Shown: positions 6,107 to 54,428 of the stretch, in pieces | Layout: every line of letters begins with the position of its first letter | Numbering within the stretch: position 1 is the first letter of the stretch | DNA from: Candidatus Moraniibacteriota bacterium | Lineage (GTDB): Bacteria > Patescibacteriota > Minisyncoccia > Moranbacterales > UBA2206 | Direction: 5' to 3' | NCBI GenBank assembly: GCA_030645735.1 | Contig: JAUSNP010000006.1 | Span: 132,095-196,094, forward strand | Length of the DNA stretch: 64,000 nt | Made by a program: the position numbers and the translations under genes | Notes under the pieces: model-generated | What the model was told of the DNA's origin: nothing | The model's input: only the letters and a program-made list of their open reading frames with translations | The model's database searches: none

Positions 6107-6886
6107 ATGAGTAGTATTTTGGGAGTTACAATTGATAATTTTTCTAAACAAGAAATACTTCACAAAGTAGACACTTTTTTATTAGAAGACTGTTTCCATC
6201 AAATAGCCACAGTCAATCCGGAGTTTATTTTGCAAGCGCAAAAAGACGCAGAATTCAAAAGCATTCTGAATGCTTGTGATTTGCACGTAGCAGATGGGGT
6301 TGGTATTTGGTTTGCTTTTTTACGCTTCGGGAGCTTCTTGAAAAACAGAATGACTGGCATTGATTTGATGTCGGATATTTTGCGCATGGCCAATGAAAAA
6401 AAGTTGAAAGTTTTTCTGGTTAGCTATGCTGGCGCTTTGAGTTCGTGGGAAGAAACAAGGGATGCTATTGCGAAAATTTATCCTAATTTAGAAATTAATG
6501 GAGCAAATTTAAACACTGTCATTGCGAGGAGAGAAACGACGAAGCAATCTCATACTGATACACAAAAGTCTGGTGAGTCTAAAAAGGAGATTGCCACGCT
6601 CCTTTCAGTCGCTCGCAATGACATTGTGTTTTGCAATTTAGGAATGTCTAAACAAGAAAAATTCCTGCACTCGCTAAAAACCCTAGAAAATGCTAAAATA
6701 AAACTAACAATGGGAGTGGGTGGCAGCTTCGATTTCTTGACTGGTAAGCGCCAAAGAGCCCCAAAATTTTTGCAAAAAATCGGACTGGAATGGCTGTGGC
6801 GCTTTGTCCAAGAACCGAAATATCGCGCCAAAAGAATTTTTCACGCCGTGGTGATTTTTTCAATCAAAGTAATTTTTAATTTGTAA
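6107..6886 (+). CDS. WecG/TagA/CpsF-family glycosyltransferase (GT26) carrying a ~35-aa in-frame insertion of a palindromic element
   Basis: HQIATVNPEF, DGVGIWFA and LGMSKQEKF motifs typical of the family; the insert lies between them. Confidence 0.7.
   Translation: MSSILGVTIDNFSKQEILHKVDTFLLEDCFHQIATVNPEFILQAQKDAEFKSILNACDLHVADGVGIWFAFLRFGSFLKNRMTGIDLMSDILRMANEKKLKVFLVSYAGALSSWEETRDAIAKIYPNLEINGANLNTVIARRETTKQSHTDTQKSGESKKEIATLLSVARNDIVFCNLGMSKQEKFLHSLKTLENAKIKLTMGVGGSFDFLTGKRQRAPKFLQKIGLEWLWRFVQEPKYRAKRIFHAVVIFSIKVIFNL
6517..6623. mobile_element. Palindromic element family A, copy 1 (TGTCATTGCGAG...CTCGCAATGACA), inside a coding sequence
   Basis: 12-bp terminal inverted repeats; ~90 percent identical to the copy at 30528-30634 when reverse-complemented. 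Confidence 0.75.
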
Positions 6887-6887
6887 A

Positions 6888-6920
6888 TCGTTTTGCGTTC
6901 TACGCTTCACGATTTGCGCA
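6888..6920. repeat. CG-period-7 heptamer repeat (CGTTTTG CGTTCTA CGCTTCA CGATTTG CG) at the gene junction and N-terminus of the next ORF
   Basis: CG dinucleotide recurs exactly every 7 nt. Confidence 0.6.
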
Positions 6921-8908: not shown

Positions 8909-10462
8909 ATGGATAAAAAAGTCAGGGTCAGATTTGCGCCGTCACCGACGGGTTATTTGCATGTTGGAGGCTTGCGAAGCGCTTTATATAACTATTTGTT
9001 CGCCAAGAAAAATGGCGGGGATTTTATTTTGAAAATAGAAGACACAGACCGTAAGAGATTTGTCGAAGGTGCTGTAGAGAGCTTGATTAGCTCTTTGGAT
9101 TGGGTGGGACTCAATCGCAATGAAGGCGTGTTTTTGAAAGAGCATGTTTTGAATCCAGAGAATAAGAAAATCATTGAATCTGCAAGTTATCCAGGCGTGA
9201 TGGAAATAGGAGAATTTGGACCATATATCCAATCAGAAAATTTAGCTGTGTATAAAAAATATGCGGAGGAGCTGGTGGCTGCTGGCAAGGCTTATTATTG
9301 TTTTTGTGAACAAGAGAGATTGGACCAAGTCAAAGCAGAACGCATCGCCAACAAACAAGCGCCAATGTATGATCGCTATTGTTTGAAAAATGTCAGCGCG
9401 GAAGAAGTCAATGAAAAGTTGAAATCCAATTGCGCCTACACAATTCGCTTGAAAGTCCCAGCGGATGAAGTCATTGAATTTGAAGATTTGATTCGTGGCA
9501 AAGTTTCTATCAACTCCAACACAGTTGATGACCAAGTCCTGATGAAATCGGATGGTTTTCCAACCTATCATTTGGCCAATGTGATTGATGATCATATGAT
9601 GGGCACCACGCAAGTGATTCGTGGCGAGGAATGGTTGCCGAGTACGCCAAAACATATTTTGTTATATCGCGCTTTTGGCTGGGACATTCCTGAATTTGCC
9701 CATCTACCTCTTTTGCTCAGCACTGACAAAAAGAAATTATCCAAACGCATGGGGGATGTAGCTGTGGAAGATTATATCAAGAAAGGCTATTTGAAAGAAG
9801 CGATCATCAACTTCGTGGTGCTTTTGGGTTGGAACATTGGCGACGGTAGCACGCAAGAAGTTTTTTCATTGGCAGAATTGGAACAAGTTTTTGACTTGAA
9901 GCGCGTACACAAGGCTGGTGCAGTTTTTGATTTGAAAAAATTGGATTGGCTCAATGCGCAATATATCAAAAAACTTTCGGTGGATGAATTGTATGAAAAA
10001 TCCTTGGAATTTTTTGCGCAAAAAGAATTTTACAAGACGTGGAACGTGGAACGTGAATCGTGGAGCGCAGAAGAGAAAGAAATATATTTGAAAAAAGTTT
10101 TACAAATTGAACAAGAACGTTTGAACAATTTGTCTGAGGTGGGGGAGAACAATCAGTTTTTCTTTGCACCCATCGCCTATGACAAAACCATGCTCAACTG
10201 GAAGGATATGTCGCCAGAAGCATTGCGAGAATCACTGCAAAAATCAATTGAAACACTGAGCGGAATTTCTGAAGAAAATTGGGAACTGAAAAACATTGAA
10301 GAAAAACTTTTTGCTACCGCCGGAGACAAAAAAGGTGATTTGCTGTGGCCACTCCGCGTGGCTTTGTCGGGTGCGCAAAAATCTCCCTCACCAATGGAAT
10401 TGGCTTGGGTCTTGGGCAAAACTGAATCTTTGCAACGATTACAAAACGCATTGGAAAAATAA
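8909..10462 (+). CDS. gltX: Glutamyl-tRNA synthetase
   Basis: RFAPSPTGYLHVGG (HIGH motif) and KLSKR (KMSKS motif). Confidence 0.9.
   Translation: MDKKVRVRFAPSPTGYLHVGGLRSALYNYLFAKKNGGDFILKIEDTDRKRFVEGAVESLISSLDWVGLNRNEGVFLKEHVLNPENKKIIESASYPGVMEIGEFGPYIQSENLAVYKKYAEELVAAGKAYYCFCEQERLDQVKAERIANKQAPMYDRYCLKNVSAEEVNEKLKSNCAYTIRLKVPADEVIEFEDLIRGKVSINSNTVDDQVLMKSDGFPTYHLANVIDDHMMGTTQVIRGEEWLPSTPKHILLYRAFGWDIPEFAHLPLLLSTDKKKLSKRMGDVAVEDYIKKGYLKEAIINFVVLLGWNIGDGSTQEVFSLAELEQVFDLKRVHKAGAVFDLKKLDWLNAQYIKKLSVDELYEKSLEFFAQKEFYKTWNVERESWSAEEKEIYLKKVLQIEQERLNNLSEVGENNQFFFAPIAYDKTMLNWKDMSPEALRESLQKSIETLSGISEENWELKNIEEKLFATAGDKKGDLLWPLRVALSGAQKSPSPMELAWVLGKTESLQRLQNALEK
10038..10065. repeat. Heptamer repeat ACGTGGA/ACGTGAA x4 inside gltX, in-frame (encodes TWNVERESW)
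   Basis: acgtggaacgtggaacgtgaatcgtggag. Confidence 0.75.
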
Positions 10463-13183: not shown

Positions 13184-13188
13184 AGTAT

Positions 13189-13238
13189 TCGTGGAACGTG
13201 AATCGTGAATCGCGTAACACTGCGGTTCACGTTACGCG
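13189..13238. repeat. Heptamer repeat (CGTGGAA CGTGAAT CGTGAAT CG) fused to an 8-bp-stem hairpin CGCGTAAC...GTTACGCG, in the iscU-iscS junction
   Basis: Direct reading of the sequence. Confidence 0.7.
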
Positions 13239-14477
13239 TTATGCTTTATGAGATTTATTATAGTATTCCCCTAGTATATTTCCGGAAATCTTGCGCAATC
13301 TTTCTACGATTGTTTTCAATTTTTTCACTGCTGCATCAATTTCCTGTTTGGTTGTATATTTGCCAAGCGTGAATCGCAATGATCCATGCGCTTGTTCAGC
13401 CTTGAGTCCAATAGACAATAAGACATGCGATGGTGACAATGCGCCCGATGAACAGGCTGAACCAGTTGAACAAGCGATGCCTTCCATGTCCAATGACAAC
13501 AAGAGTCCCTCCCCTTCCACATCCGCAAAACTGAAATTGGCATTGTTAGGTGAGCGTAAAATTTTTGAACCATTCAAAACTGCTTTGGGAATTTCTTTGG
13601 AAACCTTGGCTATCAAATAATCCCGCAACTCCAAAACTTTGCGATTTACGTTTTGCGTTTTGCGGTTTGCGATTTGCTCAATGGCTTTACCAAATCCAAC
13701 AATGCCCGGCACATTATGTGTACCAGCCCGCATTTTATATTCCTGATCACCACCATCCTGTATTTTTTTGATAGTAGTCCCCTTTTTGACATACAACATG
13801 CCTACACCCTTAGGTCCATAAATTTTGTGCGCTGACATCGACAGCAAATCTACACTCAATTTTGCCACATTGCAATCAAAATAATTCACCGCTTGCGTCG
13901 CGTCAGTGTGAAACAAAAGTTTGAATTCATTTTCTTTTTTAGTTGCGTTCAGTTTCTTCACTAGTTTTCCAATTTTTTCAATTGGTTGCACCGTGCCAAT
14001 CTCATTGTTCACATACATCACTGAAATCAAAATTGTGTTTGATTTGATAGCCTTGGCGATATCACTAACCTTAATCAAGCCGTCCTTGTCCGGTTTGATA
14101 TAGGAAACTTCAGCTAAACCTTCTTTTTCCACAGTCTTACATGAATCCAGAACACAATGATGCTCAAAGGCAGTGGTGATGATATGTGGTTTGATCTTGG
14201 CATTTTCAGCCTTAGAATAATATGATTTCAAAACGCCCTTAATAGTGATGTTATTTGATTCAGTAGCACCACTAGTAAAAATTATTTCTGATGGCACAGC
14301 GCCAAAAAAAGTTGCAATCTTGCCGCGTGCCGAGTCCACTGCTTGCAGAGCGTCTTGCCCAAAAGAATGAATTGACATGGCATTGCCAAAATTCTCAGAA
14401 AAATATGGCAACATTTCCTTCAAAACTTCTTTGTCTGCTGGTGTAGTAGCGGCATAATCCAAATATATTCTTTTCAT
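13239..14477 (-). CDS. iscS: Cysteine desulfurase
   Basis: PLP-lysine region SAHKIYGPKGVG; C-terminal active-site Cys (CSTGSACSS); carries an in-frame heptamer insert. Confidence 0.9.
   Translation of the reverse strand: MKRIYLDYAATTPADKEVLKEMLPYFSENFGNAMSIHSFGQDALQAVDSARGKIATFFGAVPSEIIFTSGATESNNITIKGVLKSYYSKAENAKIKPHIITTAFEHHCVLDSCKTVEKEGLAEVSYIKPDKDGLIKVSDIAKAIKSNTILISVMYVNNEIGTVQPIEKIGKLVKKLNATKKENEFKLLFHTDATQAVNYFDCNVAKLSVDLLSMSAHKIYGPKGVGMLYVKKGTTIKKIQDGGDQEYKMRAGTHNVPGIVGFGKAIEQIANRKTQNVNRKVLELRDYLIAKVSKEIPKAVLNGSKILRSPNNANFSFADVEGEGLLLSLDMEGIACSTGSACSSGALSPSHVLLSIGLKAEQAHGSLRFTLGKYTTKQEIDAAVKKLKTIVERLRKISGNILGEYYNKSHKA
13639..13677. repeat. CG-period-7 repeat (CGATTTA CGTTTTG CGTTTTG CGGTTTG CGATTTG) inside iscS, in-frame (encodes ANRKTQNVNRKV)
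   Basis: Direct reading of the sequence. Confidence 0.75.
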
Positions 14478-29168: not shown

Positions 29169-29720
29169 TTAAGCCAATACTTTATTTAAATCTTCCGGAT
29201 TATTAAAGAAAATTATTTTCGATTTAGTTTTATGCCCTTCTTTAATAAATTCTTTTATTGTATGCCCTGTTATGCCCCCACTTCCCTCTAAAACATACAT
29301 GTCCTTCGACATTCCACTAGTTATTGTAACCTCGTACATTGTGCCTACCTTCCCGCTAATAACTATTGCCATGTCAATGTTTAAGCACATATCCAAAGAC
29401 CTCAGATAATTATCAATGCCTAATAATTTTTTATTAAAATACTTTTTTTGAAAAATAACATTGGCATATTTTGATAAATCAACATTATGAAATTGTGAAT
29501 GATCCGACATGGATTTCCCAACGGCATATGAAATTACTTTTCCACCATTTTTAATTGCAGAAAGTGCTACTGCATGAGGATAGCCGCTTGTGCCACCCGT
29601 TACTACGGTATGATTATTAATGGCAATCAATTTGCCAATTTCTTTCGCCTTTTTAATTATTTCTTTATCACTAGCCTTGGTTGTTCCAAAAATTCCTATT
29701 TTCATAATTTTATTTCTCAT
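29169..29720 (-). CDS. LOG/SLOG-like Rossmann-fold protein (TIGR00725-like)
   Basis: IGIFG...VVTGGTSGYPHAVALSA and later VLEGSGGITGHT segments. Confidence 0.45.
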   Translation of the reverse strand: MRNKIMKIGIFGTTKASDKEIIKKAKEIGKLIAINNHTVVTGGTSGYPHAVALSAIKNGGKVISYAVGKSMSDHSQFHNVDLSKYANVIFQKKYFNKKLLGIDNYLRSLDMCLNIDMAIVISGKVGTMYEVTITSGMSKDMYVLEGSGGITGHTIKEFIKEGHKTKSKIIFFNNPEDLNKVLA

Positions 29721-31329
29721 TACTAATAAAAGCTATTCCCAAAAACACCCACAAAAATCCCAGCATAATTCCGGAGTTGAAGAGATTTGGAATAGTCAAA
29801 GCAAACCAACCGAGCAGGATGAAGAGTGGCAAGAATTTCTGTGAATCTTTGGCCAGGAAAAAGTCGCGCGCGGATTTGCCAAGAATCCAAAGCCAAACTG
29901 CCAAAAATGCCAAGAGACCAATGATACCAGAACCCAACCAAATTTCCAGAAAGATGTTGCTGGCATTGAGTCCAGTTCCACGCTCATCGGTGCCCAAGTA
30001 TGAACTGACGTTGCCCCAACCGATTCCTAGGATTGGATTTTGCTTTATCAAATTCCAAGATTTTTTGTAAATTTCTGATCGCACATTCACATTGGGATCC
30101 CTTCGGAAAACTTCCGTCACAAAATGACCAGCTGATTTTTCAGTTTCAACTTCTTCCAAATTTATATGCCTACAATTTATTGTTTCTAGATCGCTAAGTT
30201 CTTGTGGTTGCGCATCAAAACTTTTTTCTTCCAAACAAGAGATGGTTATCTTCTGCAACCCACCCGTGCTTTGCACACGATTAGCTAATTGAAAATTGGT
30301 CAGATGGAAAAAATATACCATGACAACAGCAATCATGAATGCGCATATCACTTTGATTTTCATCCAAAAAGCCTCTCTCCATTGCCACTCCCTAAAATTC
30401 AATTTCAATCGAGTGATGACCGCAAACCACAAAAGAATAGTCACTCCCACTGCTCCCAGCCAAGCGCTTCTTGAGACAGTGAGAATAAGTGCTATAAAAA
30501 TTAGTGTCAAAAAAATAAATATGATCATGTCATTGCGAGCGACTGAAAGGAGCGCGGCAATCTCTTTCTGAGACTCCTCAGGCCTTTGTGTATCAGTATG
30601 AGATTGCTTCGTCGTTTCCCTCCTCGCAATGACAGTGTTTTGGTATAAAATAGTATAAATAATTGCCAACAAAAGAACTAGGAAAATGCCGAGCCAATCC
30701 GCTTCCGCAAAAGTTCCATTCGGTCTCCCTGGCATCACTTCAAAATGACTTGCGCCACGCATAAACTGAATATTTTGCCAGATGCCATACAAAACTACGA
30801 CAACCGACGAGCTCAAGAAAAATGGAATGACTTTTTTCAAATCTTCTGATGTCTGAATATAATTGCGTACGAGGAAGTATAAAAAAATAAACGATGTCAA
30901 AACCACTGATTGCTTCAAGCCCACTCCTCTGTTGCTAGCAAAAATTGCACTCACAAAACTGGCGGCGCCAAACACAATCATTGCCCAATCATACCAAGCT
31001 AATCTAATTAATTTGAAATTCAAACGTTTGGTCGCCAAGCGAATGATGATGGCCAAAATTGTCAGCCCGCCAAAAAATTGATACGGACGAATAGCTATGC
31101 CCAATTCCACTGGCGCCAAATTGATATTTTCCAACATACTTGTCCCGGCAAACAACAAAAATCCCCAGCCGGGACGATAGAGTGTCAAAAGCAAAGTCAA
31201 AATCGCGAAGAAAATGAAATCTTCCAAACGCAATGGCAAAACATTCAGATTGAAAAGCATAATGGCAAAAAAGACCAAAGCGACATTGGTAATTAGCAGG
31301 AGTATTTGATTTTTATTTTTTAGAAACAT
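29710..31329 (-). CDS. O-antigen ligase / Wzy-like polytopic membrane protein carrying an in-frame palindromic-element insertion
   Basis: About 11 TM helices plus periplasmic loop; contains VIARRETTKQSHTDTQ...LLSVARND as in the GT26 gene. Confidence 0.55.
   Translation of the reverse strand: MFLKNKNQILLLITNVALVFFAIMLFNLNVLPLRLEDFIFFAILTLLLTLYRPGWGFLLFAGTSMLENINLAPVELGIAIRPYQFFGGLTILAIIIRLATKRLNFKLIRLAWYDWAMIVFGAASFVSAIFASNRGVGLKQSVVLTSFIFLYFLVRNYIQTSEDLKKVIPFFLSSSVVVVLYGIWQNIQFMRGASHFEVMPGRPNGTFAEADWLGIFLVLLLAIIYTILYQNTVIARRETTKQSHTDTQRPEESQKEIAALLSVARNDMIIFIFLTLIFIALILTVSRSAWLGAVGVTILLWFAVITRLKLNFREWQWREAFWMKIKVICAFMIAVVMVYFFHLTNFQLANRVQSTGGLQKITISCLEEKSFDAQPQELSDLETINCRHINLEEVETEKSAGHFVTEVFRRDPNVNVRSEIYKKSWNLIKQNPILGIGWGNVSSYLGTDERGTGLNASNIFLEIWLGSGIIGLLAFLAVWLWILGKSARDFFLAKDSQKFLPLFILLGWFALTIPNLFNSGIMLGFLWVFLGIAFISNEK
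30528..30634. mobile_element. Palindromic element family A, copy 2, inside a coding sequence (inverted relative to copy 1, same orientation relative to its host gene)
   Basis: TGTCATTGCGAG...CTCGCAATGACA termini; ~90 percent identical to copy 1. Confidence 0.75.
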
Positions 31330-31343
31330 TTTATTTATTGCAT

Positions 31344-31423
31344 TGTCATTCCCGTGAAAACGGGAATCTAGTGTAGAAACTTAATAATGCACGACTGGAT
31401 TCCCGATCAGGTCGGGAATGACA
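31344..31423. repeat. Element family B, short variant (TGTCATTCCCG...CGGGAATGACA) filling a stop-to-start gap
   Basis: Two hairpins, ATTCCCG-TGAAAA-CGGGAAT and TCCCGA-TCAGG-TCGGGA. Confidence 0.65.
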
Positions 31424-32717: not shown

Positions 32718-34001
32718 ATGTCAGAAAAAAGAACACAGAAAGTTTGCGTTGTCGGCTTGGGCTATGTTGGTTTGCCATTGGCCGTGCGTTGCGTAGAAAA
32801 AGGCTATGAGACATATGGACTAGAAAGAGATCAGAAAAAAGTTGATTTGATCAACAAAGGCAAGAGTCCGATTGAAGAAAAATTCTTAGAAGACAATTTG
32901 CCAAAATTCAAACCGACTACCACCACTGATGAAAAAATCATCAAGAAGTGTGACATCATTTTGATTTGCGTGCCAACTCCGGTTGACTCTATGTATATGC
33001 CAGATCTGACTCCAGTTATTGGTGCTAGCGAAGCTGTGATGCGCAATCTGAAAAAAGGCGCTTTGGTAGTTTTGGAATCTACGGTGAATCCTGGTGTCAG
33101 CGAAGAAGTTATCCGACCAATTTTCGAAGAAGCTGGTTTCAAAGTGGGCAAAGATGTTTTCATCGCGCATTGCCCAGAAAGAATCAATCCAGGCGACCCA
33201 AAATGGAATGTGACCAACATCCCACGCGTGGTTGGATCATTCGACAAAACCGGTCTTGATATCGCCGTGAAATTTTATGAAAGCATCGTGGATGGCAACA
33301 TCCGCCCAATGAAATCAATTCGTGAAGCGGAAGCGGTGAAAATTGTGGAAAATTCATTCCGCGACATCAATATTGCTTTCGTGAATGAACTAGCCAAATC
33401 TTTCGACAAGCTCGGTATTGATGTAAAAGATGTGATCCTAGGAGCTTCGACCAAACCATTTGCTTTTATGCCTCACTTCCCTGCTTGCGGAGTCGGCGGA
33501 CATTGCATTCCAGTTGATCCCTATTATTTGATTGAGCGCGCCAAGAAATCTGGCTTCGATCACAAATTCTTGAAAATTGCGCGAGAAATAAACAATTCTA
33601 TGCCAGCCTACACGACTGAATTGATGCAAGACGCCTTGAATGAATTGCAAATGCCCATGAAAGGCACCAAAATTGGCGTGTTAGGAATTTCCTACAAAGC
33701 CAACGTAGATGACACGCGTGAATCTCCAACTTTCAAAATTTTAGACCTGTTGGAAGAACATGGTGTGAAATATGACACTTTCGATCCGCACATCTTGGGC
33801 AAATCCAGCATCAAAACTCTCGGCGCACTTTTGAAAAAAGTTGACGCTTTGATTATTGCGACCGACCACAAAGAATTCAAAGAAATTGATCCGAAACTTT
33901 TCAAACAAAACGGCATCAAAGTCATCATCGACGGCAAGAACTGTCTCGACAAAGACGCCATCAAAAAACTCGGTATTATTTATAAAGGTATTGGACGATA
34001 A
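32718..34001 (+). CDS. Nucleotide-sugar dehydrogenase (UDP-ManNAc/UDP-Glc dehydrogenase family)
   Basis: VVGLGYVGLPLAV NAD fold; catalytic Cys region GVGGHCIPVDP. Confidence 0.8.
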   Translation: MSEKRTQKVCVVGLGYVGLPLAVRCVEKGYETYGLERDQKKVDLINKGKSPIEEKFLEDNLPKFKPTTTTDEKIIKKCDIILICVPTPVDSMYMPDLTPVIGASEAVMRNLKKGALVVLESTVNPGVSEEVIRPIFEEAGFKVGKDVFIAHCPERINPGDPKWNVTNIPRVVGSFDKTGLDIAVKFYESIVDGNIRPMKSIREAEAVKIVENSFRDINIAFVNELAKSFDKLGIDVKDVILGASTKPFAFMPHFPACGVGGHCIPVDPYYLIERAKKSGFDHKFLKIAREINNSMPAYTTELMQDALNELQMPMKGTKIGVLGISYKANVDDTRESPTFKILDLLEEHGVKYDTFDPHILGKSSIKTLGALLKKVDALIIATDHKEFKEIDPKLFKQNGIKVIIDGKNCLDKDAIKKLGIIYKGIGR

Positions 34002-34109: not shown

Positions 34110-34210
34110 TGTCATTGCGAGGAAGTTCCGCCTCGGAACGACCGCGGCAATCCCAAGCATTGATGCATTGAATATGAGATTGCCACGCTCCTTCGTCGCT
34201 CGCAATGACA
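34110..34210. mobile_element. Palindromic element family A, copy 3 (intergenic)
   Basis: Same TGTCATTGCGAGGA...GAGATTGCCACGCTCCT...CTCGCAATGACA termini and subterminal blocks. Confidence 0.7.
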
Positions 34211-34245: not shown

Positions 34246-34482
34246 ATGTTTGACCTATTGAAATCAATCGTCTGGATCGTCGTGATGCTTGCACTGGCCT
34301 ATTTCATAATGAGCTACTTTGGCTATGAACCAAATTTAGAATATTTCTCCACTAGCAAAGAAGCTTGCCAAGCCAAAATCAAGGATTGTACAAACAATGT
34401 GATTCACAATGGCATTGATAACGCTGACAAATGCAATTTCAATTGCGTCAATCCAGAACTAATCATTAAGAAAGCAAACTAA
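34246..34482 (+). CDS. Small membrane protein with Cys-rich tail (hypothetical)
   Basis: One TM helix followed by 5 Cys. Confidence 0.3.
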   Translation: MFDLLKSIVWIVVMLALAYFIMSYFGYEPNLEYFSTSKEACQAKIKDCTNNVIHNGIDNADKCNFNCVNPELIIKKAN

Positions 34483-36237: not shown

Positions 36238-36337
36238 TGTCATCCTGAACTTTATTCAGGATCTACTCTGCGTTTCACTGAGATAAATTTAGATTAATGA
36301 TACAGTGAGCAGATTCCGGGTCAAGCCCGGAATGACA
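36238..36337. repeat. Element family B, copy 2 (orientation 1)
   Basis: TGTCATCCTGAAC...TTCAGGAT and ATTCCGGGTCAAGCCCGGAATGACA hairpins; ends 11 nt before the ATG of the next gene. Confidence 0.75.
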
Positions 36338-36348
36338 GCACTATACTT

Positions 36349-37431: not shown

Positions 37432-37435
37432 ACTC

Positions 37436-37535
37436 TGTCATTCCGGCCTTGAGCCGGAATCTACTCACCGTATCGTGAATCTAAATTTAATTCAGTGAAA
37501 TGTAAAATAGATCCCGGGTCAAGCCCGGGATGACA
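37436..37535. repeat. Element family B, copy 3 (orientation 2)
   Basis: TGTCATTCCGGCCTTGAGCCGGAATCT...GATCCCGGGTCAAGCCCGGGATGACA; fills the gap from 4 nt after the stop to 10 nt before the next start. Confidence 0.8.
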
Positions 37536-39412: not shown

Positions 39413-39766
39413 ATGCGACAACAAACTAAAATCATTTTGTTTTTCATTGTTCTCTTCTTAGCCAGCTCGGTCTATCTTTTTTCCATTGATTCCAGATACA
39501 ATGACCCGACATACAACAAGAATTGGTATGCGCTATCGTTTGTTGAACCAAAATCAGACAGTTTGAATTTCGCTATTGAAAATTTTTCTGCCAACATAAA
39601 TTTCCATTGGGAGCTTTTAGCTGGCAAAGAAAAAGTTGAGACTGGTAATGTTGAAATTCAAACGGGAGAGAAAAAAGAGATTAGCCTGTCCCAAATAGCC
39701 GCTGATCAAAAAATGACCGTGCGTGTTTCTTCTGGAGATGCTACACAAGAAATTTATAAAAACTAA
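39413..39766 (+). CDS. Small signal-anchored hypothetical protein
   Basis: N-terminal TM; translationally coupled to the upstream gene. Confidence 0.35.
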   Translation: MRQQTKIILFFIVLFLASSVYLFSIDSRYNDPTYNKNWYALSFVEPKSDSLNFAIENFSANINFHWELLAGKEKVETGNVEIQTGEKKEISLSQIAADQKMTVRVSSGDATQEIYKN

Positions 39767-39773
39767 CATAGCC

Positions 39774-39874
39774 TGTCATCCCGGGCTTGACCCGGGATCT
39801 ACTCTGCGTTTCACTGAATTAAATTTAGATTCGCAATTACAGTGAGCAGATTCCGGCTCAAGGCCGGAATGACA
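39774..39874. repeat. Element family B, copy 4 (orientation 1)
   Basis: TGTCATCCCGGGCTTGACCCGGGATCT...AGATTCCGGCTCAAGGCCGGAATGACA. Confidence 0.8.
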
Positions 39875-39875
39875 A

Positions 39876-41015
39876 TTGAAAAATATGTCCAACCCTAAAA
39901 AAATATTATTAGTCACTCGCCCAATCGCCCCACCTTGGGATGAGGCCTCTAAGAATTTTGCTTTTTATCTCGCCAAAAGTGTAGCTAATTTTGATTTGAA
40001 TCTTTTGACTAATGGCCTGATCGCTGAAATTCCCAATGCTCAACAAAAACCCATTTACACCTCCAATGATTTCAGCTATTTTCAAAAACTGCGCCTCATC
40101 AAACATTTGCGCAAAATGAAAAATGATTTTGACATCTTGCATTATATTTTCACACCCACCAAACAAAATTCTTTTTTATTAAAACATTTTGTGAATGCTG
40201 GCAAAAAGAAAACTACCAAAATCATCCAAACCATAGCAACTTTGCGCGAAGATTTGTATTCTGATTCGGATCTGAAAGATTTGATGTTTGGTGATTTAAT
40301 TATCACCTATTCTGATTATGCCAAAAATAAACTCGCTTCTTTGGGATTTAAAAATGTGCAACGAGTCTATCCAGGAATTGATTTGCAATATTATTCAGCA
40401 AAACCAAAAAATATAGAAATACTTCAACAGCTTGGAATTACACAAGAAGATTTTGTAGTGACCTATCCCGGAGAATATATTCGCTTAGGCGCAACAGATG
40501 ACATCGTGCGAATGATCACAGAAAACGTTGAGGTCTTTAGAGAAAAAAAGATCAAAATATTTTTAGCCTGTCGACTGAAAAATGACAGTGAAGCTATCAA
40601 AAAAAGAGATGCGGTGCTTGAAGAACTAAAAAAACATAACGCGATGGACGTAGCTATTGTCGCTGATACATTTTCTGATATGTCAGCTATTTATAATTTG
40701 TCAGATATTGTTATTTTCCCTGTCCAAAATATGCGTGGCAAGTTTGATGTGCCTTTGGCCGCAGTTGAACCGATGGCCTGTGAAAAGCCCGTGATTGTTT
40801 CAGACCTACCGATTCTCAAGGAGTTTGCCAATGAAACCAATTCTGTCACAATTGAAAAAGGCAATTCACAACAATTGGCTGATGCAATTTTTGATCTCTA
40901 CAACAATCCAGAAAAACGAGCGACTCTCGGCAAAGGCGGACGCAAATTCTGTGAAGAAAATTTCGACATCAAAAAAGTCGCCTCAATCTACGAAAAAATT
41001 TACACCGAACTATAA
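39876..41015 (+). CDS. GT4-family glycosyltransferase; possibly starts at the ATG at 39885
   Basis: C-terminal GT-B domain with ...PMACEKPVIVSD... Confidence 0.7.
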   Translation: MKNMSNPKKILLVTRPIAPPWDEASKNFAFYLAKSVANFDLNLLTNGLIAEIPNAQQKPIYTSNDFSYFQKLRLIKHLRKMKNDFDILHYIFTPTKQNSFLLKHFVNAGKKKTTKIIQTIATLREDLYSDSDLKDLMFGDLIITYSDYAKNKLASLGFKNVQRVYPGIDLQYYSAKPKNIEILQQLGITQEDFVVTYPGEYIRLGATDDIVRMITENVEVFREKKIKIFLACRLKNDSEAIKKRDAVLEELKKHNAMDVAIVADTFSDMSAIYNLSDIVIFPVQNMRGKFDVPLAAVEPMACEKPVIVSDLPILKEFANETNSVTIEKGNSQQLADAIFDLYNNPEKRATLGKGGRKFCEENFDIKKVASIYEKIYTEL

Positions 41016-44149: not shown

Positions 44150-45674
44150 TATGTCAATTAGCATCGCCAAATCAGCCCTCTGGGTCACTGTTTCAGAAAT
44201 CATCTTCAACTTGTCAGGATTTATCATTCACAGCGTTCTGGGGCGCGTTTTGGGTCCGGCAGACTATGGCAGATATGGCCTGATTGTGACTTTGACCACC
44301 ATGGTCATCGTTCTGATTGGCAATGGCATCCCAACTGCTATGGCGAAATACATCAGCGAGATTTTCGAGTCAGATCCACAAATGGTTCTCAAAATAAAAA
44401 AGCAAGCCATCAAATTGCAAATGCTCATCGTCGGATCAATTACGGTAATTTTCTATCTTTCTGCCGGTCTGATTTCCAAGGCTTTGGGCGATCCAAGCTT
44501 GGCGCCACTCTTCCGCTTTTCAACTTTGATTATCCCAGCCTTCGCTGCGGCATCTTTCTATTTTTCCTACTACACTGGCTTGCACAAATTCAACACCCAA
44601 GCTACCCTCAAAACTATTCGCTCTGTGATGCGCATTGGTTTTGTGGTCGGCTTGGCTTTTATTTTCGGTCTCAAGGGTTCCATCTCCGGCTATGTCATTG
44701 CGCCTTTTTCCGTTTTTGCAATTGCTTTTCTGATTGATAAATTCAAAATCTCTCCAGAACTAAAAAAACAATCTGCATTAATTGCATCCACTAAAATTGA
44801 CTTCGATTGGAAAAAATTGGTCAACTATGGCTGGCAAGTAGTGATTTTCTTTTTAGCCTATGAGCTACTCATCAGCATTGATCTATATATGGTCAAAGCG
44901 ATTTTGCGCGATGATGTTTTGACTGGAATCTACAATGCTTCACTCACCGTCGGACGCATCCCCTACTACATTTTCTATGCCATGACGGTTTTTCTATTGC
45001 CAATGATGTCAAAATCCACCGCGCAAAACAATCATGGCGAAACAACTAGAATCCTTGCTCAAGCATTGCGCATAATTTTGATTCTGCTCGTGCCAATGAT
45101 CATCTTGCTTTCCATCTTTGCTTTGCCAACACTACAATTGCTATATGGCCAAAAATACATAGCGGGAGCTGTGCCAATGTCAGTCCTCGTGTTTGGCGTC
45201 GGATTTTTGACACTTTTTTATGTCTTGAGTTTCGCTATGAACGGCGCTGGCAAAACCAAACTTGTGATGTGGATTGCTTCAATCGGACTGGCCATCAACT
45301 CGATTTTGAATTATTTTTTTATCCACAAATATGGCATCCTCGGCTCGGCCATCGCCACTTCCGTCGCTTCATTTGTCATCATGGTCATTATGCTCTACTA
45401 TCTGAAACGTGATTTCGGCGTTGCATACAAGATGAGAAGTGTTCTGCGCGTGGCCCTAGCTGGATTCCATATTTATATTTTCTCCCTAATCCTTCCACTT
45501 AGTCCCAAACTATTTATCCTTGAAACTATTCTTCTTTTGGGTGTTTATTTTGGTTTCCTTTGGATTTTGCGAGAAATCAAAAAGGAGGACCTTGCAATCC
45601 TCCAAAATATTATTCGTCGCAAGAAAGTCATTGAAGTTGAGCAAGAATTATCTGGAACGGAACCAAGCGCGTAA
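44150..45674 (+). CDS. Wzx-like polysaccharide flippase (MOP superfamily)
   Basis: About 14 TM helices; start taken at MSISIAK rather than the longer annotated ORF. Confidence 0.65.
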
Positions 45675-45686
45675 ACTTTTCATAGC

Positions 45687-45787
45687 TGTCATTCCGGCCT
45701 TGAGCCGGAATCTACTTACTGTTATCGCGAATCTAAATTTATCTTAGTGAAAGATAAAGAAGATCCCGGGTCAAGCCCGGGATGACA
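45687..45787. repeat. Element family B, copy 5 (orientation 2)
   Basis: TGTCATTCCGGCCTTGAGCCGGAATCT...GATCCCGGGTCAAGCCCGGGATGACA. Confidence 0.8.
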
Positions 45788-45812
45788 AAAGCCTGCGAAG
45801 CCATTCAGTAAT

Positions 45813-47339
45813 TTAATTTCCCCAACGATACACACCAATGTCACCGCGCACCGCGATGGCATTTATTTTTTCCAAGTTTTGCTCAACATATTCTTGCACC
45901 GCTTCAGAAATATAATCTTTGTCATTGCCCGAAAAAATAAACCAGCCCGATGGATTTTCACTCATGATTTTTTGCAACTCTGCTAGGCTGAATTTTTCTT
46001 GTGACAATTCTCCACCAAAATCAAAGGTTGCAACCTTTTGTCCACTCCAATAATAGTTGCGGAAATCCCGAGTGATTAAAACATCAGTCGGTTTTTTGTT
46101 TTTCTTGAAATAGGTGAAAACACTGCGATAGTTTGGATTTTCTGAACGCGATGTTTGATTGTAAACATTGTTTTCTTGAAAGAAATAAGCATAGTTTGGC
46201 AAAATCAAGAAAGCAATGATACTCGCGATATAAAAAGGTTTTTTCTTGTATTGTAATAGACTATCTTGAAAGAAAACGGCCACTGAATAAATTCCCGCCG
46301 CAATCAAAATCATTTCAAAAGATTGGATGAAGAAAATATATTGCTCGCCGACATTTCTGCGCCACATGAAAATTGCGAATAGCAATGGCACAAAAAATGA
46401 AATTGACAGCCACAAAGCCTCCTTGCCCAGAAATCTGGTTTTGACCAAATAATAAATTCCCAACAGCGCAAACGCAATCGCAATCAGCACATCATTATAA
46501 TCACGCAAAACAATGTTTAGATAACTGAAATGTGTCGTGAAAAAAACTAAAGTTACCCAAAATTTATCTATCAAGTTTTTGGCAAAAATTTCAACCAAAA
46601 CAAATCCGGCCACAGCCATGGCCAGCATCACCGCATATTTATTTTGCAATGATTTTGTTTTGCGATAAACACTCACCAAACGCACCGCAAGATACACTGC
46701 GACAACAATAGCAATGTTCGCGGTGAGCTGATGCAAATGAAAACTCAGCGCTCCCAGCGCCAGCATCGGCACCAAATACATCAAATTCAATCCGTATTCA
46801 ACATTAATTTTTTTTATCCAAGCCACATCGCCCTCATATTTTCTTTCCAAGAATTTGAAAGTTGACCATGAAAACAGCAGGAAGATTGGAAAAAACATAG
46901 CATACATCCGCACATGCCGATCAAAAATGATGCCCGAAACGCTCAGAGCGAACAAAGTTGCGCTCAAAAGGCCAACGGCACGTTTTTTGGTGAAACTAGT
47001 TGCCACTAGATACATCGCCACCATAGAAATCATGCCCCAAAAAACACTCACCGCGCGAGCTGTGGCTTCAGTAGGTGGAAAGAATTTGTATAGTTGCGCC
47101 ATTTGCCAGCGATAGGCCCAAGCTCGCTCATCACTGGGGTCATTCACTCTCTCAGCCGGAGCGCCCAAATTGAAATCCCATGCATGCCAATCGCCCGTTT
47201 TGAAATAGCCATAACTGGCATTCACATCCAAAAACTCATCCGCCACAAACGAAGAATTGCCCAATTTATATATGCGCAAAAATCCACCCAACAAGATTAT
47301 TAGAAACAGGATAGCAAAGAACCTTTTTTTGTCTAACAT
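45813..47339 (-). CDS. GT-C-fold membrane glycosyltransferase (ArnT/PMT-like, GT39/83 family)
   Basis: Periplasmic-loop DEFLD motif after the first TM; about 12 TM helices. Confidence 0.55.
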   Translation of the reverse strand: MLDKKRFFAILFLIILLGGFLRIYKLGNSSFVADEFLDVNASYGYFKTGDWHAWDFNLGAPAERVNDPSDERAWAYRWQMAQLYKFFPPTEATARAVSVFWGMISMVAMYLVATSFTKKRAVGLLSATLFALSVSGIIFDRHVRMYAMFFPIFLLFSWSTFKFLERKYEGDVAWIKKINVEYGLNLMYLVPMLALGALSFHLHQLTANIAIVVAVYLAVRLVSVYRKTKSLQNKYAVMLAMAVAGFVLVEIFAKNLIDKFWVTLVFFTTHFSYLNIVLRDYNDVLIAIAFALLGIYYLVKTRFLGKEALWLSISFFVPLLFAIFMWRRNVGEQYIFFIQSFEMILIAAGIYSVAVFFQDSLLQYKKKPFYIASIIAFLILPNYAYFFQENNVYNQTSRSENPNYRSVFTYFKKNKKPTDVLITRDFRNYYWSGQKVATFDFGGELSQEKFSLAELQKIMSENPSGWFIFSGNDKDYISEAVQEYVEQNLEKINAIAVRGDIGVYRWGN

Positions 47340-53315: not shown

Positions 53316-53329
53316 CAGAATATATATAT

Positions 53330-53428
53330 TGTCATTCCGGCCTTGAGCCGGAATCTGCTTACTGTAATCGTGAAATTTAATTTATTGCATGAACCAAAAG
53401 AAGATCCCGGGTCAAGCCCGGGATGACA
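53330..53428. repeat. Element family B, copy 6 (orientation 2)
   Basis: Same two hairpins and TGTCAT/ATGACA ends. Confidence 0.8.
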
Positions 53429-53486
53429 GTTATTAAAAAATCGAGAATTTTCATCTCGATTTTTTATATCTGAAACTTGCTCTAAT

Positions 53487-54428
53487 TTATTTATTCTTCA
53501 AATACACCGGTAGGGCTAAGAAACTCAAGAGCATTTGGAGGAAACGACTGAGGATGGCCACGGTGATGACCAAGGCTGAGCTGACCCCAAAAAAGCCGAA
53601 GAATGTGACATAGGCCCATTCCTTCACGCCGATGTTGTTGATGCTGATTGGGGCTGATGAAACGATGCTGATCAAAAAGATGACCGATAGATAGTCCAGA
53701 AGCCCTATTTTGGCTCCCAGAGCCAAGAATAGCACAAAATTGGCTCCTGCAAGCCCAATCAGACTGAAGGCCACTGAGCCTGCCACAGCCTGCCACAGCA
53801 CGCCTGAATTGTCATGATAATGAGCCATTTCTAGCATGAATTTTGAGGCTTTTTCCGGCACATACTGGCCTAATTTGGTTTTGTGTAAAGCCAGTTTTTC
53901 CCAAAATTGCATCTTGCGCGTCACAAAAAACAGCACCACCACAATCACTCCCGCCAACACACCCGCATTCAAAACCGACAAAATATATTTAGTGCTGATT
54001 ATTCTATAATTGAGCAGCGAAAAAAACAAAGTCAAAAGCATCGCTCCAAAAAGTCCGGTCAAGCGATCCACTACCACTGATGAAGCAGCTTGGGTATATT
54101 TCTTTTCCGCTTTGCCAATTTGATAGGCGCGAAAAGTGTCGCCACCGATGAAAGATGGCATAAAATTATTGATGAAAGTTCCAGCTAAATAGAATTTGAA
54201 AAAATCACGCAGGGGCAAATGAATGCCTTTGAACTCGGCTAATTTTTTCCACTTATAGGCCGATACAAGAATTCCGGCAACCAGAACAATAAAATACAAA
54301 ACGATGTATTTTATTTCAATCTTACTTAGTAGCGCCAGAACTTCCTGCCAATTGATTTTGAAAATAAGCCAAAACAAAAACGCCAAACTAATGGCGAGCT
54401 TAATAATAAATTTAGTAATTTTTTTCAT
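53487..54428 (-). CDS. Flippase-like domain membrane protein (TIGR00374/UPF0104, LPG-synthase-TM-like)
   Basis: About 8 TM helices; ...FINNFMPSFIGGDTFRAYQIGK... segment typical of this family. Confidence 0.55.
   Translation of the reverse strand: MKKITKFIIKLAISLAFLFWLIFKINWQEVLALLSKIEIKYIVLYFIVLVAGILVSAYKWKKLAEFKGIHLPLRDFFKFYLAGTFINNFMPSFIGGDTFRAYQIGKAEKKYTQAASSVVVDRLTGLFGAMLLTLFFSLLNYRIISTKYILSVLNAGVLAGVIVVVLFFVTRKMQFWEKLALHKTKLGQYVPEKASKFMLEMAHYHDNSGVLWQAVAGSVAFSLIGLAGANFVLFLALGAKIGLLDYLSVIFLISIVSSAPISINNIGVKEWAYVTFFGFFGVSSALVITVAILSRFLQMLLSFLALPVYLKNK

What the first reader, a model, noticed from the sequence alone, without database searches (positions are those of the whole stretch)
30528..30634. 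Second in-frame copy of the same element in a Wzy/ligase-like membrane protein, giving the same inserted peptide
This copy is about 90 percent identical to copy 1 when reverse-complemented. Its host gene is on the opposite strand, so the element has the same orientation relative to its host gene in both cases. It encodes nearly the same peptide (NTVIARRETTKQSHTDTQRPEESQKEIAALLSVARNDMIIF) in an unrelated protein. Two independent in-frame insertions of one element argue for a mobile, translation-tolerated element rather than shared ancestry of the two proteins. The intergenic third copy at 34110-34210 shows the element also exists outside genes.
Basis: seen in the sequence. Interest (0 to 1): 0.75.

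Follow-up and report, generated by a model that had tools for sequence, protein, structure and literature searches.

The report
In-frame palindromic repeat inside membrane-protein gene
A 107-base hairpin-forming repeat has been copied, in frame, into two unrelated cell-envelope genes of a tiny uncultured bacterium; it belongs to a repeat superfamily found across most bacterial phyla and tied to a small single-strand DNA nuclease (Ssn).

Summary
Window 30528-30634 holds a 107-nt palindromic element, 92% identical over 114 nt to the reverse complement of 6511-6624. It is read in frame inside a Wzy_C/O-antigen-ligase-like gene (29710-31329, minus strand) of a Candidatus Moranbacteria genome. The same element sits in frame in a WecG/TagA glycosyltransferase gene (6107-6886). 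The two proteins share nothing but the 39-residue insert. The closest Wzy orthologue (81% identical) lacks it.

Each element is two inverted half-sites, GTC-ATTGC...GCAAT-C, around a variable spacer. This is the layout of the Neisseria NTS/dRS3 repeats and the "Ssn-related motifs" bound and cut as ssDNA by GIY-YIG Ssn nucleases (Chenal 2025). Exact termini occur in over 120 genomes from many phyla. In two other genomes Ssn genes lie among such elements. The window holds nine doublets, seven of them intergenic.

There is no target-site duplication. The opposite orientation is closed by stop codons, so the shared orientation is a survival filter. The insert lies in a predicted cytoplasmic inter-helix loop. 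Other repeat types fill that same loop in other orthologues. Related copies interrupt UvrA, UvrB and another Wzy-like gene elsewhere.

Verdict: a new variant of a known kind (RPE-like in-frame palindromes; NTS/NIME/SRM repeats). Ssn-driven mobility is inferred, not shown.

The parts
30528..30634 (-). Family A palindromic doublet, copy 2 (the finding). It is translated in frame as TVIARRETTKQSHTDTQRPEESQKEIAALLSVARND (aa 232-267 of the host). Similarity to copy 1 extends over 30527-30640 (114 nt = 38 codons).
30529..30562 (+). Half-site GTC-ATTGCGAGCGACTGAAAGGAGCGCGGCAAT-C: GTC upstream, ATTGC/GCAAT stem, C downstream.
30602..30633 (-). Inverted half-site GTC-ATTGCGAGGAGGGAAACGACGAAGCAAT-C, on the coding strand of the host gene.
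29710..31329 (-). Host gene: 539-aa O-antigen-ligase/Wzy_C family membrane protein. It is intact and is 100% identical to a protein named Candidatus Moranbacteria O-antigen ligase family protein. The insert lies between predicted TM helices 212-228 and 269-285, in a loop predicted to be cytoplasmic.
6517..6623 (+). Family A doublet, copy 1. It is in frame (aa 137-172) in the WecG/TagA/CpsF glycosyltransferase gene 6107-6886 (+).
34110..34210 (.). Family A doublet, copy 3 (101 nt). It is intergenic, between a UDP-glucose dehydrogenase gene (32718-34001) and ORF 34246-34482.
31344..31423 (.). Short NTS/dRS3-like doublet (GTCATTCCCGTGAAAACGGGAATC and its inverted partner), 15 nt upstream of the host gene's start codon. 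The left half matches the published SRM pattern and the dRS3 consensus ATTCCC-N8-GGGAAT.
36238..36338 (.). Family B doublet (about 101 nt; half-sites GTCATYCYGRRC..loop..ATC), intergenic.
37435..37535 (.). Family B doublet, intergenic, filling the gap between genes ending at 37431 and starting at 37546. Its right half matches the SRM pattern.
39774..39874 (.). Family B doublet, intergenic (39766 to 39876). Its left half matches the SRM pattern.
45687..45787 (.). Family B doublet, intergenic (45674 to 45813). Its right half matches the SRM pattern.
53328..53429 (.). Family B doublet, intergenic (53315 to 53487). Its right half matches the SRM pattern.

Best explanation
The feature is a non-autonomous palindromic repeat of about 107 nt (114 nt shared with its sister copy). 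It is built from two inverted half-sites, GTC-ATTGC...GCAAT-C, around a variable spacer. It is a long-loop variant within the superfamily that includes the Neisseria NTS/dRS3-NIME repeats and the 'Ssn-related motifs' (SRM). Those motifs are hairpins that small GIY-YIG nucleases (Ssn) bind and cut as single-stranded DNA.

Shown here: the element was copied into two unrelated cell-envelope genes of a Candidatus Moranbacteria genome. It persists there because it arrived in the only stop-free orientation, in one of its two open frames, with a length that keeps the frame. It also landed in places that tolerate extra residues: a short inter-helix loop of the Wzy-like protein, predicted to be cytoplasmic, and a length-variable linker/helix segment of the WecG enzyme.

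Inferred: the 36 residues are a by-product of a DNA-level repeat. Conservation follows the DNA stems, not the peptide.

Inferred, not shown: spread uses single-stranded hairpin DNA and an Ssn-type nuclease encoded elsewhere in the genome, or formerly present, without target-site duplication. The roughly 100-nt doublets would then be gene-less derivatives of half-site-ssn-half-site units.
For: Identity and insertion. The repeat and the read-through are confirmed. The hosts share only the insert. Orthologue P0002 lacks it in protein and DNA.

Architecture. The window has 18 half-sites of the form GTCAT-stem-loop-stem-ATC, always as convergent pairs, giving 9 doublets. A 19th, spurious match brings the total to 19, against 2.0 matches in shuffles. 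Both strands fold into a long hairpin (about -44 to -51 kcal/mol, z -4.5 to -6.4).

Link to SRM/Ssn. The GTC before the palindrome and the C after it are the positions Chenal et al. 2025 (PMC11893778) found most important for SsnA cleavage and binding respectively. Their SRM pattern hits the window 5 times against 0.18 in shuffles.

Ssn gene neighbourhoods elsewhere. The Nostoc GIY-YIG protein in L052 matches N. gonorrhoeae at 44% identity, E 3e-19, in a tblastn search. That Neisseria locus encodes a 94-aa protein flanked by canonical NTS. The L052 gene has TGTCATTGCG motifs on both sides. In L223 an Ssn homologue (44% identical to the Neisseria protein, E 1e-27) lies within an array of family A elements, bounded by GCGGCAATCT ... 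AGATTGCTTCG..CTCGCAATGAC. In Rhizobium (L204) an ssn gene sits exactly between two inverted half-sites, CGTCATCCCAGGGCTTGACCCTGGGATCCAC, nearly identical to window family B. In Planktothrix (L201) the ssn gene is flanked by about 97-nt doublets with the same layout.

Distribution. Exact termini with a 65-95 nt interior occur in 120 or more genome loci from many phyla, and the inner GCAATC/GATTGC motifs, which were not imposed, are also conserved.

Tolerance. Only 2 of 6 frames are open, and the opposite orientation is closed. The insert lies in a loop that shares parity with the K/R-rich loops. AlphaFold2 models it as a low-confidence extension of the flanking helices (pLDDT about 53-55, against a mean of 84).

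Generality. Pfam-verified in-frame copies interrupt UvrA, UvrB, another Wzy_C protein and a PAS-GAF-HD protein in other genomes. Other element types fill the same Wzy loop in orthologues.
Against: No GIY-YIG/Ssn gene is present in the 64-kb window or in about 19 kb of flanking DNA from the same sample. The rest of the genome could not be read.

Family A half-sites do not match the published SRM pattern. Their perfect local stem is only 5 bp with a 14-24 nt loop, so recognition by an Ssn enzyme is an extrapolation.

Ssn has been shown to be a nuclease that modulates transformation, not a transposase. The two half-sites of a doublet lie on opposite strands, and SsnA cuts only one strand orientation, so a simple excise-and-insert scheme does not follow.

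In about 1 Mb around family A elements only two Ssn genes were found.

Translation through the insert is not demonstrated. In the WecG host the peptide replaces about 13-20 native residues rather than being a clean insertion, so the history there is more complex than a single insertion.
Confidence: 0.7

Rival explanations
1. It is a classical MITE: a deletion derivative of an insertion sequence, moved by a DDE transposase that recognises the 12-bp terminal inverted repeats TGTCATTGCGAG.
For: It has perfect 12-bp terminal inverted repeats starting with TG...CA, a size of about 100 nt, many dispersed copies and a long hairpin fold.
Against: There is no target-site duplication: 92 of 126 copies have 0 nt and the rest have chance-level 1-2 nt. 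There is no flanking base preference. No transposase gene lies between such termini in any locus inspected. The conserved inner motifs and the GTC/C flanks fit the NTS/SRM hairpin grammar instead. GIY-YIG Ssn genes, not transposases, are embedded in element arrays.
Confidence: 0.08
2. It is a passive spread without a dedicated enzyme. The palindromes would be copied between sites by recombination, gene conversion or template switching at hairpins. The resemblance to Ssn motifs would reflect only that Ssn targets pre-existing hairpin repeats, for example to restrict transforming ssDNA.
For: No Ssn gene was found in 83 kb of this genome. Copies 1 and 2 share 6 nt of 5' flank (AAACAC) beyond the palindrome, as if a segment with flank had been copied. 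Different element types replace one another in the same Wzy loop, which fits element-by-element replacement through recombination. Chenal et al. show a role in transformation, not transposition. NIME arrays were proposed to be recombination substrates.
Against: Termini are conserved to the base over many phyla, and half-site-ssn-half-site units exist. Both point to an enzyme-linked, horizontally moving unit. Insertion into sites with no earlier repeat (UvrA, UvrB) needs more than homologous recombination.
Confidence: 0.17
3. The inserted peptide is a selected protein module: an exapted helical hairpin or replacement helix that benefits the two enzymes.
For: AlphaFold2 places the C-terminal half of the peptide (aa 155-168) as the helix that precedes strand IVFCN in the WecG fold, where TagA (7mpk) has a native helix. 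Family A elements have more stop-free frames than interior-shuffled controls: 2.21 against 1.52 +/- 0.08.
Against: The differences between copies 1 and 2 fall mostly in the spacer and are largely non-synonymous (6 amino-acid changes among about 9-10 nt changes). The conserved residues coincide with the DNA stems. Confidence in the insert is low in both models. The closest Wzy orthologue works without it. The shuffle control destroys the conserved stop-free inner motifs, so the excess of open frames is weak evidence.
Confidence: 0.1
4. The two proteins share a genuine homologous domain spanning this region, or the copy is an assembly artefact of a metagenome-assembled genome.
For: Repeats can cause chimeric joins in metagenome assemblies. 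The source is a single MAG contig.
Against: The hosts fall in different Pfam families, and BLASTP similarity is limited to 39 residues. DNA identity of 92% is far above what the rest of the proteins show. The same sequence is also intergenic. Both flanks of the insert align in order with orthologues of the same gene, with over 100 invariant columns kept, so there is no chimeric join. In-frame copies recur in independent assemblies.
Confidence: 0.02

Closest known systems
Ssn-related motifs (SRM) / Neisseria Transformation Sequence (NTS), the ssDNA targets of GIY-YIG Ssn nucleases (Chenal et al. 2025, PMC11893778)
   Same: Both have GTC immediately 5' of an AT-starting palindrome and a C immediately 3' of it, form a hairpin, occur in many copies per genome and span many phyla. 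Ssn genes are embedded among family A elements in two other genomes (L052, L223). The window's family B and the 31344 doublet match the published SRM pattern.
   Different: Family A has only a 5-bp perfect local stem and a 14-24 nt loop, so it fails the published pattern. It always occurs as an inverted pair whose outer 12 nt pair with each other. It is found in frame inside genes, whereas NTS is reported inside genes in only 2% of cases. No Ssn gene was seen in the 83 kb read here.
Neisserial intergenic mosaic elements (NIME: dRS3 - RS - dRS3; Parkhill 2000, Bentley 2007, PMC1797815)
   Same: Both consist of two inverted short palindromes flanking a 50-150 bp variable spacer. Both cluster next to cell-surface genes. 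The left half of the 31344-31423 doublet fits ATTCCC-N8-GGGAAT exactly.
   Different: NIMEs were described as intergenic and specific to Neisseria. Here the units are in a Patescibacteria genome, two are translated, and family A uses an ATTGC/GCAAT core.
Rickettsia palindromic elements (RPE; Ogata et al. 2000, as summarised in PMC10969869 and PMC3184786)
   Same: Both are palindromic repeats of about 105-146 bp found both between genes and in frame inside unrelated protein-coding genes of a small-genome bacterium. Each adds a conserved peptide that is predicted to be compatible with the host fold.
   Different: Sequence relatedness to RPE families could not be shown: there was no NCBIfam hit for the peptides, and no Rickettsia sequence was available. 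The present family is not confined to one genus but spans many phyla, and it can be tied to Ssn genes. Whether RPEs are themselves SRM doublets is open. Chenal et al. list Rickettsia among genomes with more than 300 SRMs.
REPINs (REP doublets forming hairpins, mobilised by RAYT transposases) and IS200/IS605-type ssDNA transposition
   Same: Both are doublets of inverted short palindromes forming a roughly 100-nt hairpin, lack target-site duplication, are non-autonomous and are presumably processed as single-stranded DNA.
   Different: There is no GTAG head typical of REPs. The associated gene is a GIY-YIG nuclease, not a HUH/Y1 transposase. REP sequences are lineage-specific, whereas these termini are identical across phyla.

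Membership tests
Ssn-related motif (SRM/NTS) superfamily | GTC directly upstream of the palindrome (the determinant of SsnA cleavage) | tested here: met
   All 18 genuine half-sites in the window, including the six family A half-sites, start with GTCAT. The determinant is described.
Ssn-related motif (SRM/NTS) superfamily | Cytosine immediately after the palindrome (the most critical base for SsnA binding) | tested here: met
   Every half-site ends ...AAT-C or ...GAT-C. The determinant is described.
Ssn-related motif (SRM/NTS) superfamily | Match to the published degenerate pattern HGTCWYN(0-2)YYVSBRHN(0-5)WNVSBRGN(0-2)RNCYNB (a short, tight hairpin) | tested here: not met
   The pattern gives 5 matches in the window (one at 31344 and four in family B), against 0.18 in shuffles. 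None falls in the three family A copies. Family A has a 5-bp perfect stem and a 14-24 nt loop.
Ssn-related motif (SRM/NTS) superfamily | An Ssn (cd10448 GIY-YIG) gene in the same genome | tested here: inconclusive
   No GIY-YIG ORF was found in the window (phmmer) or in about 19 kb of extensions.
Ssn-related motif (SRM/NTS) superfamily | Motifs flank ssn genes | tested here: met
   For family A this holds in other genomes. In L052 (Nostoc), TGTCATTGCG motifs lie on both sides of an Ssn homologue. In L223 the ssn gene is embedded in a family A array. For the family B type it holds in L204 (Rhizobium).
NIME (dRS3-RS-dRS3) | 20-bp inverted repeat ATTCCC-N8-GGGAAT flanking a 50-150 bp RS spacer | tested here: not met
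   Family A uses an ATTGC...GCAAT core. Only the left half of the 31344-31423 doublet fits the dRS3 consensus.
Rickettsia palindromic elements (RPE) | Palindromic repeat of about 105-146 bp found in frame in unrelated genes | tested here: met
   The element is 107 nt and lies in frame in the Wzy_C and WecG hosts. The RPE size range is given.
Rickettsia palindromic elements (RPE) | Sequence similarity to one of the RPE families, and occurrence in Rickettsia | tested here: inconclusive
   An NCBIfam scan of the insert peptides gave no hit at E up to 10. I could not verify that RPE-domain models are in that release. No Rickettsia DNA was available: the look-up failed, and the plasmid BLAST gave no Rickettsia hit.
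Classical MITE | Terminal inverted repeats plus target-site duplication and a cognate IS with the same ends | tested here: not met
   Terminal inverted repeats are present. There is no target-site duplication and no flank preference in 126 copies. No cognate IS was seen.
REP/REPIN (RAYT-associated) | REP unit with a conserved 5' GTAG and an associated RAYT (Y1 transposase) gene | tested here: not met
   The half-sites begin GTCAT, not GTAG. The gene found in element arrays is GIY-YIG. The presence of a RAYT gene elsewhere in the genome was not tested.

The most novel reading that the evidence does not exclude
Family A and B doublets would be the gene-less derivatives of a so far unrecognised class of mobile elements whose enzyme is the small GIY-YIG ssDNA nuclease Ssn (half-site-ssn-half-site units, as in L204 and L223). 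The class would be spread over most bacterial phyla, partly on phage-like DNA. 'Protein-coding palindromes' of the Rickettsia RPE type would then be a general outcome of this class. The elements would repeatedly colonise permissive loops of conserved proteins (Wzy-like ligases, UvrA, UvrB, TagA) and could even supply replacement secondary-structure elements.
Probability: 0.3. Interest if true: 0.8.

Novelty: new variant of a known kind. Interest (0 to 1): 0.6.

Why it matters
In-frame 'selfish' palindromes have been treated mostly as a curiosity of Rickettsia. NTS/dRS3 repeats have been treated as a Neisseria feature and were linked to an enzyme only in 2025. This locus connects the two. A repeat with the NTS grammar is translated inside two envelope-biosynthesis enzymes of a Patescibacteria genome. 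The same family interrupts UvrA, UvrB and another Wzy-like protein in other phyla. The same protein loop has been filled several times by different repeats.

This makes two open questions directly testable. The first is whether Ssn nucleases mobilise these repeats. The second is how often DNA-level repeats become lasting pieces of protein. It also matters for annotation: hypothetical peptides such as VIAR..ARND, SLRG..LAMT and HSERSEAESKNL, and length differences between orthologues, can be explained by this repeat family.

Tried and rejected
The number of proteins carrying the peptide could therefore not be counted that way.

2. Rfam gave no family at gathering score in the whole window, and only chance-level hits on the element (E above 3).

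3. The GIY-YIG gene found 3 kb from a family A element in L037 was used to fetch 80 metagenome loci. It turned out to be a different subfamily, a small cassette at tRNA 3' ends, with no GTCAT motifs. That scan therefore did not test the Ssn link.

4. A search of 856 kb around 124 family A elements for GIY-YIG genes gave only two. This is expected for dispersed repeats and is not a strong association test.

5. A test for target-site duplication and flank logo was negative.

6. An NCBIfam scan for RPE-domain models gave no hit. An attempt to fetch an R. felis plasmid failed, as did an attempt to read Ogata 2002.

7. BLASTN of the element against plasmids found only left-half matches in cyanobacteria and methylotrophs, none annotated.

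8. Extending the window by 10 kb on each side through Logan contigs found no further doublets and no ssn.

9. The 1-mismatch hit at 55193 is a chance match in coding sequence.

10. Intron, intein and rRNA-IVS-like readings were rejected. The element is 107 nt, matches no Rfam family, carries no splicing or intein motifs, and also occurs in intergenic DNA.
Full report
**1. The observation**

Window 30528-30634 reads TGTCATTGCGAG...CTCGCAATGACA. The repeat finder pairs 30527-30640 with 6511-6624 as inverted copies, 114 nt at 92% (pair I1). The terminal 11-mer occurs 7 times (up to 1 mismatch) against 0.84 expected by chance. Six of those hits are the ends of three elements: 6517-6623, 30528-30634 and 34110-34210. 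The seventh, at 55193, is a chance match inside coding sequence.

Pfam assigns this host to Wzy_C (O-antigen ligase family) and the host of copy 1 (6107-6886) to Glyco_tran_WecG. BLASTP between the hosts aligns only aa 230-268 with 136-174, at 82% identity. Copy 3 lies between ORFs ending at 34001 and starting at 34246.

**2. Organism and host gene**

The host protein is 100% identical to a protein named 'Candidatus Moranbacteria O-antigen ligase family protein' from a 329,606-bp contig. More than 800 homologues were found, mostly from Moranbacteria/Parcubacteria.

In a 27-sequence alignment the window protein keeps over 100 invariant columns along its whole length. It is therefore an intact gene, not a chimera.

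The closest orthologue, P0002 (81% identical), has an unrelated 19-residue loop where the window has the insert. Its DNA has no element there. The shortest orthologues (P0104, P0119) have a loop of about 10 residues, rich in lysine and arginine.

**3. Anatomy of the element**

A scan for GTCAT + stem + loop + stem' + ATC finds 19 half-sites in the window, against 2.0 in shuffles. Eighteen of them are genuine, and they always occur as convergent pairs, which gives nine doublets:

- three of family A (core ATTGC...GCAAT);
- five of family B (about 101 nt; GTCATYCCGGSC-TTGA-...ATC);
- one short doublet at 31344-31423, 15 nt upstream of the host gene's start codon.

Seven doublets are intergenic and often fill the whole gap between genes. 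Two, both of family A, are genic. Either strand of family A folds into one long hairpin (-41.6 to -51 kcal/mol, z -4.5 to -6.4). No Rfam family matches.

**4. What the element is related to**

The hits come from Chloroflexota, Bacteroidota (many Mucilaginibacter), Cyanobacteria, Patescibacteria, Planctomycetota, Verrucomicrobiota, Proteobacteria, Bacillota and others. In these copies the inner motifs GCAATC(T/C)C and G(A/G)GATTGC are also conserved, although they were not imposed by the pattern. The segments between them vary and often form their own small hairpins.

The literature search led to Chenal et al. 2025 (PMC11893778). The Neisseria NTS repeat CGTCATTCCCGCGMAVGCGGGAATCYRG, a superset of dRS3, is bound as single-stranded DNA by the 94-aa GIY-YIG nuclease SsnA and cut a few nucleotides upstream. 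The GTC before the palindrome matters most for cutting and the C after it matters most for binding. Degenerate 'Ssn-related motifs' flank ssn homologues in many phyla.

Every half-site in the window has that GTC and that C. The published SRM pattern hits the window 5 times against 0.18 in shuffles: the 31344 site and four family B halves. It does not hit family A, whose loop is too long.

**5. Direct link between family A and Ssn genes**

- In L052 (Nostoc) a 95-aa GIY-YIG gene has TGTCATTGCG motifs within 70-200 nt on both sides. A tblastn search with this protein matches N. gonorrhoeae at 44% identity, E 3e-19.
- The N. gonorrhoeae locus (L203) encodes a 94-aa protein surrounded by canonical NTS copies.
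- In L223, an IMG/VR contig with an ORF that looks terminase-like by eye (not checked against any database), a 98-aa homologue (44% identical to the Neisseria protein, E 1e-27) lies inside an array of family A elements. It is bounded by GCGGCAATCT on one side and AGATTGCTTCG...CTCGCAATGAC on the other. The gene therefore occupies the 'spacer' of a family A unit.
- In Rhizobium (L204) an ssn gene sits exactly between two inverted half-sites, CGTCATCCCAGGGCTTGACCCTGGGATCCAC, almost the same as window family B.
- In Planktothrix (L201) the ssn gene is flanked by about 97-nt doublets, TGTCATTCTGAG..AGAATCTC...GAGATCC..GGATGACA. In Spirosoma (L202) it is flanked by a GTCATCCCGAGG doublet.

The roughly 100-nt doublets thus look like gene-less versions of half-site-ssn-half-site units. 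They also match the dRS3-RS-dRS3 layout of neisserial NIMEs.

No ssn gene was found in the window or in about 19 kb of extensions. Only two were found in about 1 Mb around family A copies. The enzyme link for this particular genome therefore remains an inference.

**6. Why the genic copies survive**

In the orientation used by both genic copies, frames 2 (VIARRETTKQS...ARND) and 3 (SLRG...LAMT) are open. The other orientation has stops in all three frames. The shared orientation is therefore forced, and the shared frame is a one-in-two outcome. The block shared by copies 1 and 2 is 114 nt, which is 38 codons.

Hydropathy and loop-charge parity place the Wzy insert (aa 232-267) between TM 212-228 and TM 269-285. 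It is on the same side as the K/R-rich loops 101-115, 306-324 and 485-499, which is the predicted cytoplasmic side. The opposite side holds the 119-residue Cys-containing domain. AlphaFold2 (mean pLDDT 84.1) models the insert as an extension of the two flanking helices with a turn at 245-249, at pLDDT about 53-55.

In the WecG host the element peptide lies where TagA (PDB 7mpk) has YFTEEEENKIIEEINNKGAEV. In related homologues that segment varies from about 12 to 33 residues. AlphaFold2 (mean pLDDT 90.5) leaves the N-terminal half disordered (below 50 at 142-148). It makes the C-terminal half a helix (155-168) just before strand IVFCN. There the peptide takes the place of a native linker and helix rather than being added to a loop.

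The differences between copies 1 and 2 fall mostly in the spacer and are largely non-synonymous. The invariant residues coincide with the DNA stems. This suggests that constraint acts on the DNA, not on the peptide.

**7. The phenomenon is general**

Of 124 family A copies from other genomes, 15 lie in a stop-free frame with at least 60 codons on each side. Some of these are spurious ORFs of GC-rich DNA. Pfam confirms real hosts with domains on both sides of the insert: UvrA (L006), UvrB (L044), a PAS-GAF-HD protein (L068) and another Wzy_C protein (L024). In L024 the insert again lies just before the Wzy_C domain.

Within the Moranbacteria Wzy orthologues the same loop holds several different repeats:

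- a diverged family A copy (P0020/L205);
- two CGTCATTCTGAGCG...GGATGACGG elements, giving the peptide HSERSEAESKNL...SLRMTG (P0033/L206 and P0030/L207);
- an AT-rich AAATTTCAAA repeat in many other sequences, giving ISNFKFQISNQF (for example P0003/L230).

Because the empty loop is only about 10 residues long, all tolerated insertions necessarily fall within a few codons of each other. At least three kinds of repeat have entered it.

**8. Mechanism: what is shown and what is inferred**

Shown:
- the element is a repeated, hairpin-forming DNA unit copied into two unrelated genes;
- there is no target-site duplication or flank preference;
- it has the NTS/SRM grammar;
- it co-occurs with Ssn genes in other genomes.

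Inferred:
- single-stranded hairpin DNA is the substrate for spread;
- an Ssn-type nuclease takes part;
- insertions are retained only if they are open, frame-preserving and structurally tolerated.

One point stays unexplained. The two half-sites of a doublet lie on opposite strands and SsnA cuts only one strand orientation, so the actual copy mechanism is unknown. All three family A copies share CAC just 5' of TGTCAT, and copies 1 and 2 share AAACAC. This is close to where SsnA cuts relative to NTS, but it rests on three copies and is only suggestive.

**9. Comparison with known families, and novelty**

The behaviour (a palindromic repeat of about 105-146 bp, in frame in unrelated genes) is that of Rickettsia RPEs. 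Sequence membership could not be shown. The grammar is that of NTS/SRM and NIME, but family A fails the published pattern and the dRS3 consensus. It is not a classical MITE, because it has no target-site duplication. It is not a REP/REPIN, because it has no GTAG head and the associated gene is GIY-YIG.

Searches of the held literature found no description of these termini, of such elements in Patescibacteria, or of in-frame SRM copies. Chenal et al. report NTS inside genes in only 2% of cases.

I rate it a new variant of a known kind, with interest 0.6. The core observation is real and instructive, and the cross-phylum, Ssn-linked, protein-invading picture is new. However, in-frame palindromes are an established phenomenon, and the mobility mechanism is not demonstrated here.

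Noticed in passing
window 30500-53500 and 6107-6886: All nine doublets lie in or next to cell-envelope glycan genes: WecG/TagA, GT4 and GT2 glycosyltransferases, the Wzy-like ligase, UDP-glucose dehydrogenase, a Wzx-like flippase (Polysacc_synt), PMT_2 mannosyltransferase-like proteins and DUF6541. Eight of the nine fall within 23 kb. This echoes the clustering of NTS/NIME near surface-structure genes in Neisseria.
   Followed up: partly
L121-L200 (for example L129 and L123): An ~80-aa GIY-YIG subfamily (motif FERYLKSGSGKAF), different from Ssn, sits immediately 3' of tRNA genes. The last 10-17 nt of the tRNA are repeated downstream of the ORF, and ACTTCGCTA.../...AAGCGAAGT inverted repeats flank it. 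This looks like a small mobile cassette that targets tRNA 3' ends.
   Followed up: no
L230:2130-2330 (P0003) and many Wzy orthologues in alignment A2; window 2091-2237 and 61794-61947: An AT-rich AAATTTCAAA-type repeat is translated as ISNFKFQISNQFSITKFQI in the same Wzy loop of many Moranbacteria orthologues. Similar AT-rich repeats (and TTGTATCTTGG repeats) occur in intergenic DNA of the window.
   Followed up: partly
L223:3452-6000: A contig from the viral collection has a large ORF that looks terminase-like by eye (not checked against any database). Next to it lie an Ssn homologue and at least three full family A elements. Phage-like DNA may therefore carry the system between hosts.
   Followed up: partly
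window 29169-29720: A SLOG/LOG-like gene (Pfam LDcluster4) lies directly downstream of the Wzy-like gene and overlaps its last 11 nt. In five orthologous loci the Wzy gene is flanked on both sides by GT4 glycosyltransferases.
   Followed up: no
L001-L120 and the window (127 family A copies): Family A elements have more stop-free reading frames than interior-shuffled controls: mean 2.21 of 6 against 1.52 +/- 0.08, and no shuffle out of 300 reached the observed value. The control destroys the conserved stop-free inner motifs, so this is only a hint of selection for translatability.
   Followed up: partly
window 4456-4486, 10034-10064, 13186-13216; also 4550-4582, 6889-6921, 13649-13681: There are short low-complexity repeats (ACGTGGA pentamer-like runs and CGTTTTGCGTT-type runs) at several sites, at least some of them between genes. 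Their function is unknown (families D12 and D9).
   Followed up: no
L006 (ORF upstream of UvrA start) and L097: Other repeat types (CHSEQSEESL...FRMTD) are fused to the stop-free stretch just upstream of the UvrA start. Two SLRG-type repeat segments lie close together in the same membrane-protein ORF in L097. Repeat-derived coding segments are therefore frequent in these genomes.
   Followed up: no
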